Source: Escherichia coli
Lineage (GTDB): Bacteria; Pseudomonadota; Gammaproteobacteria; Enterobacterales; Enterobacteriaceae
Assembly: GCF_003334255.1 (NCBI RefSeq)
Contig: NZ_QOWU01000006.1
DNA: 64,000 bases
Direction: 5' to 3' (one strand)
Shown: positions 99-30,339 of the stretch, piece after piece
Position numbering within the stretch: the first letter of the stretch is position 1
Layout: each line of letters opens with the position of its first letter
The notes under the pieces: model-generated
Told to the model about the DNA's origin: nothing
What the model saw: the letters and a program-made list of their open reading frames with translations, nothing else
Databases searched by the model: none
Translations under genes and position numbers: made by a program

Positions 99-2381
99 TC
101 AGAAATGCATATTGGCTGTGAGCAAGAAGGTTCTTGGCTCGCCCGGGTGATAACGGTAGCCGCTCTTGTTGATTGAGGCGACGTAATCGGTATCAAACAG
201 GTTGTAAACGTTTAGCTGGAAGTCGAGATTGCGATTAACTCGATACCCCAGTTTGGCATCGGCGACCCAGTAACCTTCGGTAAACGCTGGCGTTCCCACC
301 GCGCCGTCTGAACCTTTATGCATACTGCCGATATAGCGTGCGCCCGCGCCAACAGAGATATCGTCGGTTGCCTGATATTGGCTCCATAAGGTGAAGGCGT
401 GCTCCGGGGTATACGGCAGCGATGAGGAACCATCCTGGGCAACATCTTTGCCGTTTTTGATGGTTGCTTTTTGCTGGGTATAGCCGCCAATCACCTGCCA
501 CGCGGGAGTGATATTCCCGGCCACGGATATCTCATAGCCTTCGACGCGTTTCTTACCGTATTGCGAGTAAGTTCCGTCATCATTTTGCTCAACTTCATTT
601 TCGATATCAGTGCGGAACAGCGCGGCGGTGAGCAACAGACGTTTATCCAGAACCTGCCATTTGGTGCCAATCTCGCTGGTGTTGGCTTTTTGCGGTTTAA
701 AATCGGTGCGGTTGGCACTGTTACCGCTGCCAGACTGCGCAAGGGCGAAGTTGTTGCCGCCCGGAGGCTGCTGGGAAACGGCATAGTTAATATAGACATT
801 GCCGTTTTCCGTCAGGTGATACAGCGCCCCGGCTTTCCAGTTCATCAGATTGCCCGACTTGGCGGTGTCGACGGTGGTGACCGGAGAACCTTTTGCCACA
901 CCAGTTGGGCAGGTGATGGCACCGCGTCCGCTGCCGCCGCAGGCGGTGGCACTGTCATATTCAGTATGATAATTATCCAGACGGATCCCGCCGTTCAGCT
1001 CAAAATCACGGGTGATTTGCAGCGTATCAAAGGCGTAAATTGCGAAGGTATCCGTCTGACCATTGGCGTTTGCGCCGTTGCGCGTCAGGCCGCCGGGATG
1101 AATGCTGCTGTCAGGATGATAAATATTTACCGCGGGTAACGTCACCGGATTAACGCCGTAGTTAGTCTGCGTTTCACGGGTAAATTCCACGCCGGTACTG
1201 ACATCATGACCGATAGAACCGGTATAGAACGTCGAGGTCAGGTTGGTCTGGTTGGTGAGAATTTTATTACTCACATCTTTGGTATTCGCCGTGCGTGACC
1301 AGGTCCAGCTATTCACATCGCTGGTGGGCTGAGTAATATTCGACGCCCCGCCCATAATCGCCGTCATCAGGTAATCCTGCTTTACGCGCGACCAACGGGT
1401 AGTATTGCGAATGGTGGTGTTATCGTTGATGTCGTGCTCAAAACGCATGGTGGCGGTGTCGGTGGTCGAATCGTCGTAATCGGAATCCGTGCCGTAAAAG
1501 TTATGAGTATCAACTTTTCCGGAATGATTCAGGGCCGCCGTTCCCGCAGATGGGGCAGAATAGCCCGGCAAACCGATGGTCGGAATGCCGCCGTCTGGCG
1601 TGTTGTGCTGGGTGACATGCAGATAATTAAGATACAAACGATTCGCTGTACCAAGGCCAAAAGCGACAGAAGGGGCGACGCCGTAACGCTCATTTTTGAC
1701 TTTGTCGCGTCCGGCATCGTGCGTTTTTTCGCCCATTACATTCAGGCGCACCGCGGTGGTATCACCAATGACCTGATTGACGTCCAGCGTGCCGCGGCGG
1801 AACCAGGCGCTGCCAATACTGGCGGAGGCGTCAATGCCGGAATCATTGCGCGGCTGCTTGCTGATCATATTGATCGAGCCTGTCGGTGCGCTGCGCCCGT
1901 AGTCGGTGCCGGACGGCCCTTTAATCACTTCGACCTGCTCGGTATTGAAGGTGTCGCGCGAGACGCTGCCGATATCGCGAATGCCATCAATATAAATACT
2001 GTTAGAGGTATCGGCACCACGCATATAAATGGCGTCGCCAGTGGTGGAGTTACCGTTCTCACCCGCAAAAAACGCACCCACGCCGGGGACGTTTTTGAGC
2101 GCGTCGGTAAGGTTGGTTGCGCCCTGATCTTTAATCACTTGTTCAGAAATTACCGTCATCGTGCGGGTAGTATCCGCTACCGGACGCGAGAATTTCGGAT
2201 CGGCAGATTGTTGTGGCGCATAAAGCGAAGGCGTTGATGCTTCGACAACCAGCGTGTCATCCGCGTTAGTTTGCCCTTCGGCGGCGAGTGCCTGAGCCAC
2301 AGGCGTGATGCCAATACAAAGACCGGCAAAGAACGTGAGCGAATGAAATTGTCTGGCAGGGAAATTGTGATTGTTTTCCAT
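99..2381 (-). CDS. fiu: TonB-dependent outer-membrane catecholate siderophore receptor Fiu
   Basis: 760-aa ORF with signal peptide, TonB-box-like DTLVVEA near the N-terminus and C-terminal ...ANMHF ending in Phe, typical of OM beta-barrels; Fur box upstream. Confidence 0.93.
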   Translation of the reverse strand: MENNHNFPARQFHSLTFFAGLCIGITPVAQALAAEGQTNADDTLVVEASTPSLYAPQQSADPKFSRPVADTTRTMTVISEQVIKDQGATNLTDALKNVPGVGAFFAGENGNSTTGDAIYMRGADTSNSIYIDGIRDIGSVSRDTFNTEQVEVIKGPSGTDYGRSAPTGSINMISKQPRNDSGIDASASIGSAWFRRGTLDVNQVIGDTTAVRLNVMGEKTHDAGRDKVKNERYGVAPSVAFGLGTANRLYLNYLHVTQHNTPDGGIPTIGLPGYSAPSAGTAALNHSGKVDTHNFYGTDSDYDDSTTDTATMRFEHDINDNTTIRNTTRWSRVKQDYLMTAIMGGASNITQPTSDVNSWTWSRTANTKDVSNKILTNQTNLTSTFYTGSIGHDVSTGVEFTRETQTNYGVNPVTLPAVNIYHPDSSIHPGGLTRNGANANGQTDTFAIYAFDTLQITRDFELNGGIRLDNYHTEYDSATACGGSGRGAITCPTGVAKGSPVTTVDTAKSGNLMNWKAGALYHLTENGNVYINYAVSQQPPGGNNFALAQSGSGNSANRTDFKPQKANTSEIGTKWQVLDKRLLLTAALFRTDIENEVEQNDDGTYSQYGKKRVEGYEISVAGNITPAWQVIGGYTQQKATIKNGKDVAQDGSSSLPYTPEHAFTLWSQYQATDDISVGAGARYIGSMHKGSDGAVGTPAFTEGYWVADAKLGYRVNRNLDFQLNVYNLFDTDYVASINKSGYRYHPGEPRTFLLTANMHF

Positions 2382-2645
2382 TTTGCAGGTGACTTTTTCT
2401 TATATGTTGAAATTTTCACTGCCACGAGAAAGCCTCTCTGCGGATGCGATGCCACTGTTAATCCCGTGATAGTGCTCGTGAAAGTGATAATAATTTTGAT
2501 AAGCATTATCACTTGGAGCGATTTTCTATCACCCATTGCGCGAAAAAGAAATACATTTATTTACATTGAGTTCATATTTGATGTTTTTTGATTACAAAAC
2601 AGACGAAAACTGCATCCAGAGGCGAATGCAGTTACGTTGGTGGGG

Positions 2646-2906
2646 TTATTTGTAGATGGTTGCAGTACCGAACATCTGGTCATTTCCGCCTGCGGAATTA
2701 ATGACATAACCTTTCGCGCCTTGTTCGCGCGCTTTTTCTGCCAGTTTATCCTCCAGATCGCTTAGGTTTGATGCGCCAGTTGCCGAAACGGTACCGGCGG
2801 GCCGTAGCTGACCGCTGTCCAGGTTACTCATCGGTTGCGCGGCATAAGCCGTGAGAGAGATTCCGCTTAGGACGGTGGCAATCAGTAGTGTGAGGCACTT
2901 TTTCAT
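2646..2906 (-). CDS. mcbA: Small periplasmic protein McbA (YdgH/DUF1471-like; colanic acid/biofilm associated)
   Basis: 86-aa product MKKCLTLLIATVLSGISLTAYA... with signal peptide. The track ORF (134 aa) extends upstream; I chose the internal ATG at 2906..2904 that directly precedes the signal peptide. Confidence 0.8.
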   Translation of the reverse strand: MKKCLTLLIATVLSGISLTAYAAQPMSNLDSGQLRPAGTVSATGASNLSDLEDKLAEKAREQGAKGYVINSAGGNDQMFGTATIYK

Positions 2907-3181
2907 AATGACATCCTCATAAATACAACGGGTAGTGCCTGATAAGTGTAGGTCGCCTGCGCGATGCAAATGACGCAAAAAATTGACAGAGATGTGCTTA
3001 TTTTTTGAACGATATATTTTTACAAAATAAGACAAATCAATGACATGCATAATGCTGATTTTTATGATGAATTGCCATAAACCATAGCCATGTTAAGGTT
3101 TTGGGGAATGATAAACGCAGCCAGATATTTACCCTGTCGCGTTATGCGGGTATCTTACGCCGCTGCTTAAAGGAGAATGCT

Positions 3182-4108
3182 ATGTCCGCCCAGAAACCGG
3201 GGTTGCATCCGCGCAACCGTCATCACAGCCGCTACGATCTCGCCACGCTTTGTCAGGTCAATCCTGAACTCAGGCAATTCCTCACGCTTACACCCGCCGG
3301 GGAGCAAAGCGTAGACTTTGCCAATCCGCTGGCGGTGAAGGCGCTCAATAAGGCGTTGCTGGCCCATTTTTACGCCGTAGCGAACTGGGATATCCCCGAC
3401 GGTTTTCTCTGCCCACCAGTACCGGGCCGGGCGGATTATATTCATCACCTTGCCGATTTACTGGCAGAAGCAAGCGGAACAATTCCAGCGAATGCCAGCA
3501 TTCTGGATATCGGCGTTGGTGCGAACTGTATTTATCCGCTGATTGGCGTACATGAATATGGCTGGCGTTTTACCGGTAGTGAAACCAGCAGCCAGGCGTT
3601 AAGCAGTGCGCAGGCGATTATCAGTTCTAATCCGGGGCTTAACCGCGCCATTCGTCTGCGTCGGCAAAAAGAGAGTGGGGCGATTTTTAACGGCATCATC
3701 CATAAAAACGAGCAATACGACGCGACCTTGTGTAACCCGCCATTCCACGATTCCGCCGCTGCGGCACGGGCAGGTAGTGAGCGTAAACGCCGTAACCTGG
3801 GGCTGAACAAAGACGATGCACTGAACTTTGGCGGCCAGCAACAGGAGTTGTGGTGTGAAGGCGGTGAAGTCACCTTTATCAAAAAGATGATTGAAGAGAG
3901 CAAAGGCTTCGCGAAGCAGGTGATGTGGTTTACATCACTGGTATCTCGTGGTGAAAACTTACCGCCGTTGTATCGTGCCCTGACGGACGTGGGCGCGGTG
4001 AAGGTGGTTAAAAAAGAGATGGCCCAGGGGCAAAAGCAGAGTCGCTTTATTGCCTGGACCTTTATGAACGACGAGCAGCGCCGCCGTTTTGTCAATCGCC
4101 AGCGTTAA
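3182..4108 (+). CDS. rlmF: 23S rRNA m6A1618 methyltransferase RlmF
   Basis: 308-aa product starting [20 protein letters not shown]; AAGGAG RBS 7 nt upstream of ATG 3182; SAM-MTase motifs ([15 protein letters not shown]). Track ORF start at 3101 is an upstream extension. Confidence 0.9.
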
Positions 4109-25233: not shown

Positions 25234-25318
25234 CGTAGGCCAGATAAGGCGTTCACGCCGCATCTGGCGTCTGGAGCAAATGCCTGATGCGACGCTTGTC
25301 GCGTCTTATCAGGCCTGG
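25234..25318. repeat. REP/BIME cluster between convergent fsaA and moeB
   Basis: CGTAGGCCAGATAAGGCGTTCACGCCGCATCTGGC and GCCTGATGCGACGCTTGTCGCGTCTTATCAGGCC. Confidence 0.9.
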
Positions 25319-27312: not shown

Positions 27313-27515
27313 GAAAACACTCCTTCGGAGGCAAAATCGAATTTGCCTATTATGTCAGAAAAACGCCACAGACTGTATGCCACCTCGGGCGTAGCGTTGG
27401 CTCCTGCCTTTACATGCCATATCCATCTTTCTATATTCAAAAATTGAATGAGTAATTCATAAAAATTCTGATATTTATAGCAAAAGTGGCGAGCCACCCT
27501 TAATGGACGAATACT

Positions 27516-28481
27516 ATGGGCAAAGCAGTCATTGCAATTCATGGTGGCGCAGGTGCAATTAGCCGCGCGCAGATGAGTCTGCAACAGGAATTACGCTACA
27601 TTGAGGCGTTGTCTGCCATTGTTGAAACCGGGCAGAAAATGCTGGAAGCGGGCGAAAGTGCGCTGGATGTGGTGACGGAAGCGGTGCGTCTGCTGGAAGA
27701 GTGTCCACTGTTTAACGCCGGAATTGGCGCTGTCTTTACGCGTGATGAAACCCATGAACTGGACGCCTGTGTGATGGATGGTAACACCCTGAAAGCCGGT
27801 GCGGTGGCGGGCGTTAGTCATCTGCGTAATCCGGTTCTTGCCGCCCGGCTGGTGATGGAGCAAAGCCCGCATGTGATGATGATTGGCGAAGGGGCAGAAA
27901 ATTTTGCGTTTGCTCGTGGCATGGAGCGCGTCTCGCCGGAGATTTTCTCCACGCCTTTGCGTTATGAACAACTACTGGCAGCGCGCAAGGAAGGGGCAAC
28001 CGTCCTCGACCATAGCGGTGCGCCACTGGATGAAAAACAGAAAATGGGCACCGTGGGGGCCGTGGCGTTGGATTTAGACGGCAATTTGGCGGCAGCCACG
28101 TCCACAGGCGGAATGACCAATAAATTACCCGGACGAGTTGGCGATAGTCCCTTAGTGGGTGCCGGATGCTACGCCAATAACGCCAGTGTGGCGGTTTCTT
28201 GTACCGGCACGGGCGAAGTCTTCATCCGCGCGCTGGCGGCATATGACATCGCCGCGTTAATGGATTACGGCGGATTAAGTCTCGCGGAAGCCTGCGAGCG
28301 GGTAGTAATGGAAAAACTCCCTGCGCTTGGCGGTAGCGGTGGCTTAATCGCTATCGACCATGAAGGGAATGTCGCGCTACCGTTTAACACCGAAGGAATG
28401 TATCGCGCCTGGGGCTACGCAGGCGATACGCCAACCACCGGTATCTACCGTGAAAAAGGGGACACCGTTGCCACACAGTGA
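27516..28481 (+). CDS. iaaA: Isoaspartyl dipeptidase / L-asparaginase IaaA (Ntn-hydrolase)
   Basis: 321 aa; autoproteolytic GT motif ([10 protein letters not shown]) typical of plant-type asparaginases. Confidence 0.93.
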
Positions 28482-30339
28482 TGAACTTGATGCCGGTAAT
28501 GTGCTGGCGGTTGAAAATCTGAATATTGCCTTTATGCAGGACCAGCAGAAAATAGCTGCGGTCCGCAATCTCTCTTTTAGTCTGCAACGCGGTGAGACGC
28601 TGGCAATTGTTGGCGAATCCGGCTCCGGTAAGTCAGTGACTGCGTTGGCATTGATGCGCCTGTTGGAACAGGCGGGCGGTTTAGTACAGTGCGATAAAAT
28701 GCTGTTGCAGCGGCGCAGTCGCGAAGTGATTGAACTTAGCGAGCAGAGCGCTGCACAAATGCGCCATGTTCGCGGTGCGGATATGGCGATGATATTTCAG
28801 GAGCCGATGACATCGCTGAACCCGGTATTTACTGTGGGTGAACAGATTGCCGAATCAATTCGTCTGCATCAGAACGCCAGTCGTGAAGAAGCGATGGTCG
28901 AGGCGAAGCGGATGCTGGATCAGGTACGCATTCCTGAGGCACAAACCATTCTTTCACGTTATCCGCATCAACTCTCTGGCGGGATGCGCCAGCGAGTGAT
29001 GATTGCGATGGCGCTGTCATGCCGCCCGGCGGTGCTGATTGCCGATGAGCCAACCACCGCGCTGGATGTCACTATTCAGGCGCAGATCCTGCAATTAATC
29101 AAAGTATTGCAAAAAGAGATGTCGATGGGCGTTATCTTTATCACTCACGATATGGGCGTGGTGGCAGAGATTGCCGATCGGGTACTGGTGATGTATCAGG
29201 GCGAGGCGGTGGAAACGGGTACCGTCGAACAGATTTTTCATGCACCGCAACATCCTTACACCCGTGCGCTGTTAGCTGCTGTTCCGCAACTTGGTGCGAT
29301 GAAAGGGTTAGATTATCCCCGACGTTTCCCGTTGATATCGCTTGAACATCCAGCGAAACAGGCCCCCCCCATCGAGCAGAAAACGGTGGTGGATGGCGAA
29401 CCTGTTTTACGAGTGCGTAATCTTGTCACCCGTTTCCCTTTGCGCAGCGGTTTGTTGAATCGCGTAACGCGGGAAGTGCATGCCGTTGAGAAAGTCAGTT
29501 TTGATCTCTGGCCTGGCGAAACGCTATCGCTGGTGGGCGAGTCTGGCAGCGGTAAATCCACTACCGGGCGGGCGTTGCTGCGCCTGGTCGAATCGCAGGG
29601 CGGCGAAATTATCTTTAACGGTCAGAGAATCGATACCTTGTCACCCGGCAAACTTCAGGCATTGCGCCGGGATATTCAGTTTATTTTTCAGGACCCTTAC
29701 GCTTCGCTGGACCCACGTCAGACCATCGGTGATTCGATTATCGAACCGCTGCGTGTACACGGTTTATTGCCAGGTAAAGACGCGGCTGCACGCGTTGCGT
29801 GGTTGCTGGAGCGCGTGGGCCTGTTACCTGAACATGCCTGGCGTTACCCGCATGAGTTTTCCGGCGGTCAGCGCCAGCGCATCTGCATTGCTCGCGCGTT
29901 GGCATTGAATCCAAAAGTGATCATTGCCGACGAAGCCGTTTCGGCGCTGGATGTTTCTATTCGCGGGCAGATTATCAACTTGTTGCTCGATCTCCAGCGT
30001 GATTTCGGCATTGCGTATCTGTTTATCTCCCACGATATGGCCGTGGTAGAGCGGATTAGTCATCGTGTGGCGGTGATGTATCTCGGGCAAATTGTTGAAA
30101 TTGGTCCACGGCGCGCGGTCTTCGAAAACCCGCAGCATCCTTATACGCGTAAATTACTGGCGGCAGTTCCGGTCGCTGAACCGTCCCGACAACGACCGCA
30201 GCGTGTACTGCTGTCGGACGATCTTCCCAGCAATATTCATCTGCGTGGCGAAGAGGTGGCAGCCGTCTCGTTGCAATGCGTCGGGCCGGGGCATTACGTC
30301 GCACAACCACAATCAGAATACGCATTCATGCGTAGATAA
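28468..30339 (+). CDS. gsiA: Glutathione ABC importer ATP-binding protein GsiA (fused double ABC ATPase)
   Basis: 623-aa product beginning at TTG 28468 (AAAAAGGGGA RBS upstream), read as [12 protein letters not shown]...; two Walker A motifs (GESGSGKS twice). Start overlaps the iaaA 3' end by 14 nt; the start codon choice is the main uncertainty. Confidence 0.8.

What the first reader, a model, noticed from the sequence alone, without database searches (positions are those of the whole stretch)
28360..28481. gsiA appears to start at TTG inside the 3' end of iaaA
The six-frame ORF for gsiA opens at 28360, deep inside iaaA. The most plausible start is TTG 28468 (AAAAAGGGGA RBS 6-15 nt upstream), which overlaps the last 14 nt of iaaA. 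This suggests translational coupling of an isoaspartyl-peptidase with the glutathione importer, linking peptide salvage to uptake. A non-ATG start predicts low intrinsic initiation.
Basis: partly seen in the sequence, partly recalled or inferred. Interest (0 to 1): 0.25.

Follow-up and report, generated by a model that had tools for sequence, protein, structure and literature searches.

The report
gsiA TTG start overlapping iaaA
The glutathione-importer gene gsiA of E. coli does start at a TTG codon 14 bases inside the preceding gene iaaA, but this is already the reference annotation, has ribosome-profiling support, and the overlap looks like an ordinary by-product of a lost stop codon.

Summary
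The gsiA-frame ORF opens at 28360. TTG 28468 sits 6 nt after an AAGGGG Shine-Dalgarno, and iaaA ends at TGA 28479-28481, giving a 14-nt overlap. This TTG is already the gsiA start in the curated K-12 record (b0829, NP_415350.2) and in the PGAP-annotated genomes inspected. Published tetracycline-inhibited ribosome profiling put the initiation peak on this TTG and none on the older GTG start. I compared 66 distinct iaaA-gsiA junctions from enterobacterial genomes and metagenomes. The aligned codon is GTG, TTG or ATG in every one. All rival in-frame starts are non-conserved or cut off by in-frame stops. The coding signature starts at codon 2. The overlap is derived. Most lineages end IaaA at ...YRE-TAA inside the SD, 10-11 nt before a GTG or ATG start. 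Escherichia and Citrobacter carry AAA instead of TAA, which adds 8 residues to IaaA and creates the overlap. Translational coupling is possible but unproven and probably not obligatory. The ancestral layout is the independent-initiation type, E. fergusonii keeps the TTG without iaaA, and -14 overlaps are not the efficient reinitiation class. Verdict: real, ordinary, already known.

The parts
27516..28481 (+). iaaA CDS (isoaspartyl/beta-aspartyl peptidase, 321 aa), stop TGA 28479-28481
   Evidence: ORF list. Full-length match 1-321/321 to the NCBIfam NF007589 equivalog. RefSeq annotation of identical DNA. PDB structures of the same protein.
28468..30339 (+). gsiA CDS (glutathione ABC transporter ATPase, 623 aa) starting at TTG 28468
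   Evidence: RefSeq K-12 b0829 and PGAP records use the same start. NCBIfam NF007613 matches 1-623/623 at 1377.7 bits against a cut-off of 1077. A TetRP peak lies on this TTG. The aligned codon is a start in 66/66 junctions.
28453..28462 (+). Shine-Dalgarno region of gsiA (AAAAAGGGGA; core AAGGGG 28456-28461, 6-nt spacer), lying inside iaaA codons E-K-G-D
   Evidence: Best anti-SD duplex of all in-frame candidates, -7.8 kcal/mol. Purine-rich (T/A)AAGG(G/A)G is conserved in the sampled lineages.
28468..28481 (+). 14-nt iaaA/gsiA overlap (phase-1 type)
   Evidence: Direct reading. The same overlap is annotated in K-12, CFT073 and E2865. Citrobacter werkmanii has 17 nt.
28455..28478 (+). 8-codon C-terminal extension of IaaA (KGDTVATQ). 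The AAA codon at 28455-28457 occupies the position of the TAA stop of most other enterobacteria.
   Evidence: Codon-by-codon comparison. 40 of 66 unique junctions end at YRE-TAA/TGA and 22 carry AAA/CAA plus the extension. Other homologous PDB chains align only up to IaaA residues ~294-315.
28360..28362 (+). Rejected start: first ATG of the mechanical ORF (also ATG 28369)
   Evidence: No SD. 28 of 66 orthologous junctions have an in-frame stop 6 or fewer codons upstream of the true start. This frame upstream is simply iaaA read out of frame.
28450..28452 (+). Rejected start: in-frame GTG, 6 codons upstream (629-aa product)
   Evidence: No SD (-3.0 kcal/mol). Present in only 10/66 junctions. 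It is GCG in E. albertii and in one E. coli strain (L003), and GGG in Citrobacter and Salmonella. TetRP did not flag it as a second candidate.
28501..28503 (+). Rejected start: GTG used in the 2006 K-12 annotation (612-aa product)
   Evidence: TetRP signal 0/0/3 here against 46/140/71 at the TTG. The codon is GTA/GTT/GTC/GAA in 22/66 junctions, which is Val wobble. There is no SD.
28534..28536 (+). Rejected start: first in-frame ATG downstream of the TTG (601-aa product)
   Evidence: ATG in only 4/66 junctions. Anti-SD duplex is +0.4 kcal/mol. This start would remove the conserved residues 2-22.
27409..27437 (+). Promoter-like site upstream of iaaA (TTTACA-17-TATATT). Consensus match only.
   Evidence: It is the only + strand promoter-like match between moeA and the end of gsiA. 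The region is conserved in E. fergusonii, where it directly precedes gsiA.

Best explanation
gsiA is translated from the UUG at 28468. This start is selected by its own Shine-Dalgarno sequence (AAGGGG, 6-nt spacer), which lies inside the last codons of iaaA on the iaaA-gsiABCD operon mRNA. The 14-nt overlap is not an ancestral design feature. In most enterobacteria IaaA ends at ...GIYRE-TAA, with the stop codon abutting the SD and a GTG or ATG start 10-11 nt downstream. In the Escherichia/Citrobacter lineages the TAA became AAA. IaaA then reads on for 8 more codons, through the SD and the start codon, to a TGA inside gsiA. Initiation at the UUG is therefore primarily ordinary SD-directed initiation at a weak start codon. 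Ribosomes translating or terminating iaaA 11 nt downstream may add some coupling, through local unfolding or reinitiation, but this is inferred and probably not required. Shown: the coordinates, the start position, conservation of the start, and the stop-loss origin. Inferred: the relative contribution of de novo initiation versus coupled initiation.
For: The reference annotations match this start, and the NCBIfam equivalog covers residues 1-623. In vivo TetRP in K-12 BW25113 gave a signal of 46/140/71 at the TTG and 0/0/3 at the former GTG start. No second candidate was reported (PMC4909307 Table S2). The 3'-end mapping places an iaaA-terminating ribosome 8 nt away from this position. In the comparative set, the aligned codon is GTG in 37, TTG in 24 and ATG in 5 of 66 unique junctions, which fall into 32 clusters at 90% identity. 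An in-frame stop lies 6 or fewer codons upstream in 28 of 66. Codon-position variability for codons 2-8 in the 40 non-overlapping junctions is 0.10/0.05/0.27. Pro2, His3, Leu7 and Asp8 are near-invariant. For the stop loss, TAA/TGA and AAA/CAA occupy the homologous codon, and the 8-aa tail occurs only in the AAA/CAA lineages. E. fergusonii has iaaA replaced by about 70 nt of unrelated sequence. Homology to E. coli resumes at 28466, and TTG plus TAAGGAG are retained. Literature identifies stop-to-sense mutation as the usual origin of long phase-1 overlaps (-8, -11, -14). It also describes a +10/11 peak in E. coli with the SD in the spacer (PMC10666635).
Against: No N-terminal peptide of GsiA was found in the datasets I could read. 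The TetRP table has an empty 'N'-peptide' field, and the TRAINSPOTTER supplement lists only IaaA, though that file is truncated. Ribo-RET (Meydan 2019, as tabulated in INRI-seq Table S2) and in vitro INRI-seq both gave no peak at this start. Direct experimental support therefore rests on one dataset. Because of poly-A trimming and the SD-like motif, the TetRP peak cannot be assigned to a reading frame with certainty. The INRI-seq null on the isolated -30..+130 fragment, set against a strong in vivo peak, could mean that initiation does depend on iaaA translation. A neighbour-joining tree places Salmonella and a GTG/TGA lineage among the TTG/AAA lineages. A single origin of the stop loss is therefore not established.
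Confidence: 0.85

Rival explanations
1. Obligate translational coupling. gsiA's UUG is essentially silent on its own. It is used only by ribosomes that have just translated iaaA, either by termination at 28479-28481 followed by back-scanning 11 nt to the SD/UUG, or by unfolding of the initiation region.
For: The isolated initiation region gave 0 CPM in 5/5 in vitro INRI-seq replicates, whereas TetRP shows a strong in vivo peak. UUG is the weakest canonical start. In all iaaA-containing lineages sampled the stop lies within +5..+11 or -14/-17 nt of the start, so the junction is always tight. The SD is predicted to be partly paired, with P(unpaired) 0.27-0.48.
Against: 30% of annotated E. coli starts are undetected by INRI-seq, so a null result is weak evidence. 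E. fergusonii lacks iaaA yet retains TTG and a consensus SD. The gsiA SD is strong and well spaced. Local structure is no stronger than in shuffled sequence, with z = -1.2 and dG(-30..+15) equal to the shuffle mean. Huber et al. 2023 place efficient reinitiation at -8..+10 nt and state that stop-loss overlaps are typically long overlaps without coupling.
Confidence: 0.2
2. The true start is the GTG at 28501 (the 2006 K-12 annotation, 612 aa), and the TTG/SD match is fortuitous.
For: It was the annotated start until 2014. It is GTG in 44/66 junctions. Homology to generic ABC ATPases begins at about residue 11-12.
Against: TetRP signal is 0/0/3 at this codon. There is no SD (-3.0 kcal/mol). In 22/66 junctions the codon is GTA/GTT/GTC/GAA. 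Residues 2-11 upstream show amino-acid conservation with third-position wobble, so they are translated.
Confidence: 0.02
3. A longer GsiA starts upstream, at GTG 28450 (629 aa) or ATG 28360/28369 (the longest ORF).
For: These codons are in frame and open in this window. Some gene callers chose the GTG equivalent in a Leclercia-like contig (P0024).
Against: None has an SD. The GTG equivalent is present in only 10/66 junctions. It is destroyed in E. albertii, Citrobacter, Salmonella and one E. coli strain. 28/66 junctions have in-frame stops within 6 codons upstream. TetRP listed no second candidate within 60 nt.
Confidence: 0.02
4. Dual use. UUG 28468 is the main start, but a minor N-terminal proteoform arises from a neighbouring NTG (28450 or 28501) in E. 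coli.
For: Alternative in-frame starts are common in E. coli datasets. Both GTGs exist in this strain.
Against: No alternative gsiA start appears in the INRI-seq alternative-TIS table or in the TetRP second-candidate column. Neither codon has an SD.
Confidence: 0.08

Closest known systems
E. coli K-12 MG1655 gsiA (b0829, formerly yliA), NC_000913.3 867520..869391, protein NP_415350.2
   Same: Same start codon (TTG), same 14-nt overlap with iaaA (866568..867533), same 623-aa product. TetRP mapped initiation to this codon.
   Different: Nothing of substance. The window is a non-K-12 E. coli strain. It is 100% identical over 801 nt to strain E2865 and others, and carries Ser where the K-12 sequence in the TetRP table has Asn in ELSEQ[S/N]AAQ.
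Stop-loss-derived long 'phase 1' gene overlaps (-8, -11, -14 ...) described by Huber et al. 2023 (PMC10666635) and earlier work cited there
   Same: The upstream stop mutated to a sense codon (TAA to AAA). The next in-frame stop falls by chance inside the downstream ORF. The overlap is -14, which is phase 1, and cannot be shortened to -4 or -1.
   Different: Here the ancestral and derived states are both directly visible in close relatives, and the SD of the downstream gene becomes coding sequence of the upstream one.
Salmonella / Lelliottia / Leclercia iaaA-gsiA junction (+10/+11 nt, the E. coli '+10 peak' class)
   Same: Orthologous genes, the same SD position and a homologous start codon, followed by a conserved PHS(D/E)ELD N-terminus.
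   Different: IaaA is 312-313 aa and ends at TAA inside the SD. The start is GTG or ATG rather than TTG, and there is no overlap.
Termination-reinitiation coupled pairs with -4/-1 overlaps (for example moeA-moeB in this same locus, 1-nt overlap)
   Same: Co-directional genes on one transcript with stop and start close together (for moeA/moeB coordinates; for the mechanism).
   Different: The iaaA stop lies 11 nt downstream of the gsiA start rather than overlapping it. A strong SD is present, and coupling has not been tested.

Membership tests
GsiA, glutathione ABC transporter ATP-binding protein (NCBIfam NF007613 equivalog) | Full-length match to the equivalog model above its curated cut-off | tested here: met
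   Residues 1-623 match profile positions 1-623/623 at 1377.7 bits against a cut-off of 1077.
IaaA, beta-aspartyl peptidase (NCBIfam NF007589 equivalog) | Full-length match above the cut-off | tested here: met
   Residues 1-321 match 1-321/321 at 714 bits against a cut-off of 567. The protein is identical to crystallised EcAIII chains.
Canonical SD-led bacterial translation start | NTG start codon preceded by an anti-SD-complementary motif at 5-9 nt | tested here: met
   TTG with AAGGGG at a 6-nt spacing, -7.8 kcal/mol, the best of the in-frame candidates.
Canonical SD-led bacterial translation start | Start codon conserved as a start in orthologues, with the coding signature beginning at codon 2 | tested here: met
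   66/66 junctions have GTG, TTG or ATG at this codon. Codon-position variability is 0.10/0.05/0.27 for codons 2-8.
Canonical SD-led bacterial translation start | Initiating-ribosome footprint or N-terminal peptide at that codon | tested here: inconclusive
   A published TetRP peak lies at the TTG. Ribo-RET and INRI-seq show no peak. No N-terminal peptide was found in the held supplements.
Translationally coupled gene pair (termination-reinitiation) | Co-directional genes on one transcript, with no room for a terminator or promoter between them | tested here: met
   The CDSs overlap by 14 nt. The only + strand promoter-like match within or upstream of iaaA lies 5' of iaaA, at 27409-27437.
Translationally coupled gene pair (termination-reinitiation) | Stop-start distance within the range shown to support efficient reinitiation (-8 to about +10 nt, Huber et al. 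2023) | tested here: not met
   The distance is -14 nt in E. coli and -17 nt in C. werkmanii.
Translationally coupled gene pair (termination-reinitiation) | Downstream translation drops when upstream translation is blocked or terminated early | not testable with these tools
   This needs reporter genetics. The only indirect hints are the INRI-seq null against the TetRP peak, and E. fergusonii lacking iaaA.
Stop-loss-derived gene overlap | Orthologues carry a stop at the homologous codon, and the extension is confined to a subclade | tested here: met
   The stop is TAA/TGA in 40 unique junctions and AAA/CAA in 22. The tail KGDxVATQ occurs only in the latter. Outgroups on the NJ tree all carry the stop.

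The most novel reading that the evidence does not exclude
The stop-loss changed how gsiA is initiated. On this reading, the AAA/TTG haplotype turned an independently initiated GTG start with a +10-nt spacer into a weak UUG start. That UUG would fire in vivo mainly when ribosomes translate iaaA through its SD. GsiA output would then be tied to IaaA synthesis in Escherichia and Citrobacter but not in Salmonella. This would explain the strong in vivo TetRP peak alongside zero in vitro signal on the isolated fragment. It would also explain the near-perfect association of TTG with the overlap.
Probability: 0.2. Interest if true: 0.3.

Novelty: already known. Interest (0 to 1): 0.12.

Why it matters
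Practically, it confirms that the 623-aa GsiA with N-terminus (M)PHSDELD is the right construct boundary. It also shows that the longest-ORF start (28360) and the pre-2014 start (28501) are wrong. Conceptually, the locus is a clean natural example of how a gene overlap arises. A single TAA-to-AAA change lets an upstream gene read through the downstream gene's ribosome-binding site, and both ancestral and derived states survive in close relatives. A third state also exists, in which iaaA is deleted in E. fergusonii. This makes it a convenient natural test-bed for asking whether longer phase-1 overlaps couple translation. It does not open a new question.

Tried and rejected
It yielded only two enteric orthologues, L005 and L006. 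I replaced it with protein search plus look-up of encoding contigs and a degenerate DNA pattern on the iaaA C-terminus in metagenomes.

(2) I tested whether RNA structure sequesters the start region. For the 101-nt fold, z = -1.2. dG(-30..+15) is -9.7 against a shuffle mean of -9.5. The SD is only partly paired. There is no support for a dedicated unfolding switch, so I did not pursue covariation.

(3) I considered programmed frameshifting. The A5G4 run resembles slippery or SD-stimulated sites, and IaaA-GsiA fusion ORFs exist in databases. However, moving from the iaaA frame to the gsiA frame needs a +1 shift, and no suitable +1 site is present. The fusions are explained by 1-nt deletions in the DNA. 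I rejected this idea.

(4) I considered whether the TTG-overlap association reflects functional co-evolution. The two characters are 13 nt apart, so linkage or a shared haplotype explains the association. No stop codon would arise in iaaA with GTG or ATG at that position. The question is left open, not supported.

(5) Several supplement look-ups gave nothing on gsiA: the Meydan preprint (no files held), TRAINSPOTTER (only IaaA, file truncated), the acid-stress Ribo-seq study and the Salmonella riboproteogenomics study. My guessed PMC id for Li et al. 2014 was not held.

(6) Searches for 'gsiA + start codon' and 'yliA + ybiK' found no paper dealing with this junction.

Full report
**1. What is in the sequence**

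The window around the finding is the E. coli moeA / iaaA / gsiA / gsiB locus. An 801-nt query spanning the junction matches all 5426 complete E. coli genomes. It is 100% identical to several strains, and the annotated features under the match are iaaA and gsiA.

- In the gsiA frame there is a TAA at 28345-28347, and the first ATG is at 28360, giving a 659-aa mechanical ORF.
- An in-frame TTG lies at 28468.
- AAAAAGGGGA occupies 28453-28462.
- iaaA (27516-28481) stops at TGA 28479-28481.
- The TTG-initiated CDS therefore overlaps iaaA by 14 nt.

I compared all in-frame ATG/GTG/TTG/CTG/ATH codons between 28360 and 28705. The TTG has by far the best pairing to the 16S rRNA 3' end, at -7.8 kcal/mol over AAGGGG with a 6-nt spacer. 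The longest-ORF ATGs (28360, 28369), GTG 28450, GTG 28501 and ATG 28534 have weak or no SD.

**2. The start is already the reference annotation**

In NC_000913.3, iaaA is 866568..867533 and gsiA (b0829, NP_415350.2) is 867520..869391. That is the same TTG and the same 14-nt overlap. PGAP annotates identical boundaries in strains E2865 and CFT073 and in four further sampled genomes. The 623-aa product matches the NCBIfam GsiA equivalog end to end (1-623 of 623). IaaA matches its equivalog 1-321 of 321.

**3. Experimental evidence from the literature**

Nakahigashi et al. 2016 performed tetracycline-inhibited ribosome profiling on K-12 BW25113 in glucose-limited MOPS culture. Their Supplementary Table S2 lists yliA (gsiA) with a new initiation site 33 nt upstream of the 2006 annotated start. 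The start codon there is TTG.

The TetRP signal at the TTG was 46.3, 140.5 and 70.6 in three samples. At the old start it was 0, 0 and 3.0. The new site agrees with the 2014 re-annotation, and the translated sequence begins [13 protein letters not shown] (PMC4909307). The old start corresponds to GTG 28501 in this window. No second candidate is listed and no N-terminal peptide was recorded.

Signals in that study are 3'-end counts taken 15-16 nt from the first base of the P-site codon. A ribosome terminating on the iaaA TGA has its P site at 28476, so it would map 8 nt away from the TTG position. Poly-A trimming blurs positions across the GAA at 28483-28485. Frame assignment is therefore not absolute.

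Two other datasets are silent on this start. In INRI-seq Table S2 the gsiA start (867520) has 0 CPM in all five in vitro replicates. The same table records 0 in the Meydan et al. Ribo-RET data, and no alternative gsiA start appears in the alternative-TIS table (PMC9825163). INRI-seq detects about 70% of annotated starts and Ribo-RET about 18%. These nulls are therefore weak evidence. A recent N-terminomics supplement contains the IaaA N-terminus but not GsiA, and the stored file is truncated.

**4. Comparative test of the start**

I collected orthologous junctions from three sources:
- named genomes of E. albertii, E. fergusonii, Salmonella, Citrobacter amalonaticus, C. werkmanii, Lelliottia, Leclercia, Pluralibacter and Enterobacter sp. 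Bisph1;
- 97 metagenomic loci found with a degenerate DNA pattern on the conserved IaaA motif [11 protein letters not shown], designed to exclude K-12-like E. coli.

This gave 85 alignable junctions, of which 66 are unique. They fall into 32 clusters at 90% nucleotide identity. The results are:
- **Aligned codon.** It is a canonical start in 66 of 66 junctions (GTG 37, TTG 24, ATG 5).
- **Upstream stops.** In 28 of 66 an in-frame stop lies 6 or fewer codons upstream. Usually no other start codon lies between, which pins the start.
- **GTG 28450 equivalent.** It exists in only 10 of 66. It is GCG in E. albertii and in one E. coli strain, and GGG in Citrobacter and Salmonella.
- **GTG 28501 equivalent.** It is a Val codon that drifts among GTG, GTA, GTT and GTC.
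- **ATG 28534 equivalent.** It is ATG in only 4 of 66.
- **Indel lineages.** Three further lineages have small N-terminal indels, with an ATG a few codons away.

The coding signature begins directly after the start. In the 40 non-overlapping junctions, where only gsiA can constrain the sequence, codons 2-8 vary at positions 1/2/3 with frequencies 0.10/0.05/0.27. Pro2, His3, Leu7 and Asp8 are nearly invariant.

Within E. coli, the 65-mer around the start is identical in 4114 of 5426 genomes. The sampled variants change neither the SD core nor the TTG.

**5. Origin of the overlap**

Codon-by-codon comparison of the end of iaaA shows two states:
- **Ancestral-type state.** Salmonella, Lelliottia, Leclercia, Enterobacter sp. 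Bisph1 and most metagenomic lineages end IaaA at ...GIYRE-TAA (TGA in one group). The stop abuts the SD (gaaTAAggggg). The gsiA start follows 10-11 nt after the stop, and IaaA is 312-313 aa.
- **Derived state.** E. coli, E. albertii and the Citrobacter groups have AAA at that codon (CAA in one lineage). IaaA continues as KGDxVATQ to a TGA inside gsiA, giving a -14 overlap (-17 in C. werkmanii).

Among unique junctions, 40 are non-overlapping and 22 overlapping. All overlapping junctions have TTG. Non-overlapping junctions have GTG or ATG, with two exceptions. One is a single metagenomic lineage (L192) with TAA plus TTG. The other is E. fergusonii.

In E. fergusonii, iaaA is absent. Homology to the E. 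coli moeA-iaaA intergenic and promoter region is followed by about 70 nt of unrelated sequence ending in TAAGGAG-N6-TTG. Homology to E. coli resumes at 28466.

A neighbour-joining tree of gsiA places all outgroups in the stop-containing state. However, it nests Salmonella and one GTG/TGA lineage among the TTG/AAA lineages. The number of origins or reversals is therefore unresolved. The two characters are only 13 nt apart, so shared haplotype or recombination is enough to explain their association.

This route is the one the literature regards as the usual origin of long overlaps: stop-to-sense mutation, with the next in-frame stop falling inside the downstream gene. The result is a phase-1 overlap that cannot be shortened to -4 or -1. 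The +10/11 arrangement is a recognised E. coli class in which the SD sits in the spacer (PMC10666635).

**6. Mechanism**

The best-supported reading is ordinary SD-directed initiation at a weak canonical start. UUG accounts for about 3% of E. coli starts, and AUG, GUG and UUG together span 10-100% of AUG activity.

Coupling to iaaA translation is possible. The terminating ribosome sits 8-11 nt from the start. The contrast between a strong in vivo peak and no in vitro signal on the isolated fragment is also suggestive. Several observations argue against obligate coupling:
- a strong, well-spaced SD;
- no exceptional local RNA structure;
- the ancestral +10 arrangement;
- retention of TTG plus a consensus SD in the iaaA-less E. 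fergusonii;
- experimental work placing efficient termination-reinitiation at -8 to about +10 nt.

I put obligate coupling at about 0.2 and some measurable contribution from coupling somewhat higher. Neither has been tested.

**7. Comparison with what is known, and verdict**

The feature is the known gsiA start of E. coli. It was re-annotated in 2014 and supported by TetRP in 2016. The operon organisation iaaA-gsiABCD is also in the literature (for example PMC10355420).

What this analysis adds is the comparative proof of the start and an explicit reconstruction of the overlap as a stop-loss extension of IaaA. That is a textbook mechanism rather than a new one. Novelty: already known. Interest: low.

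Noticed in passing
window 28458-28461 (GGGG run in the gsiA SD); proteins P0002, P0003, P0004, P0007: Several public E. coli assemblies encode 911-940-aa IaaA-GsiA fusion ORFs. In P0002 and P0004 the join is ...GIYREKG|[10 protein letters not shown], as expected from a 1-nt deletion in the GGGG run. P0003 shifts frame slightly earlier. These could be homopolymer sequencing errors or real mutants. P0004 is seen on 4 contigs.
   Followed up: partly
L086 1268-1500 (E. fergusonii), equivalent to window ~27488-28465: E. fergusonii lacks iaaA. The moeA-iaaA intergenic and promoter region is retained at 76% identity. About 70 nt of unrelated sequence then supplies a consensus TAAGGAG six nt before the conserved TTG of gsiA. 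An in-frame ATG also lies 7 codons upstream of that TTG.
   Followed up: partly
L003 (E. coli strain ExPEC, NZ_CM172609.1) 1869-3685: In this strain gsiA is annotated as a truncated 'ATP-binding cassette domain-containing protein' followed by a pseudogene fragment. The glutathione importer ATPase therefore appears disrupted.
   Followed up: no
window 28100-28900: Five of the 5427 matches to the iaaA-gsiA junction in complete E. coli assemblies lie on records typed as plasmids rather than chromosomes.
   Followed up: no
window 26077 (moeA/moeB boundary, - strand): By the RefSeq coordinates of K-12 and E2865, moeA and moeB share one nucleotide (a -1 overlap, TAATG type). This is a classic reinitiation-type junction only 1.4 kb from the -14 junction. 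moeB also gave no INRI-seq peak.
   Followed up: partly
window 48924-49002 (-), 25238-25315 (+), 61700-61780 (+), 60678-60720 (+): Rfam gathering-threshold hits: RybB sRNA (105 bits), two naRNA4/CssrE elements and ES036/CssrF. No tRNA genes occur in the window.
   Followed up: no
window 28461-28478 (IaaA residues 316-321): PDB entry 2ZAL chain B lists only IaaA residues 179-315, while other entries list 179-321. Other homologous chains (e.g. human, plant) align only to residues ~294-315. The lineage-specific 8-residue tail (314-321) therefore lies at or just beyond the end of the region aligned by any other homologous chain and may be disordered.
   Followed up: no
L192 (metagenomic contig), junction region: This single lineage has the IaaA stop intact (TAA) but a TTG start. 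Its spacer (GGAGAGACCG) resembles the overlap haplotype. It is a candidate precursor, or a revertant, of the Escherichia/Citrobacter state.
   Followed up: no
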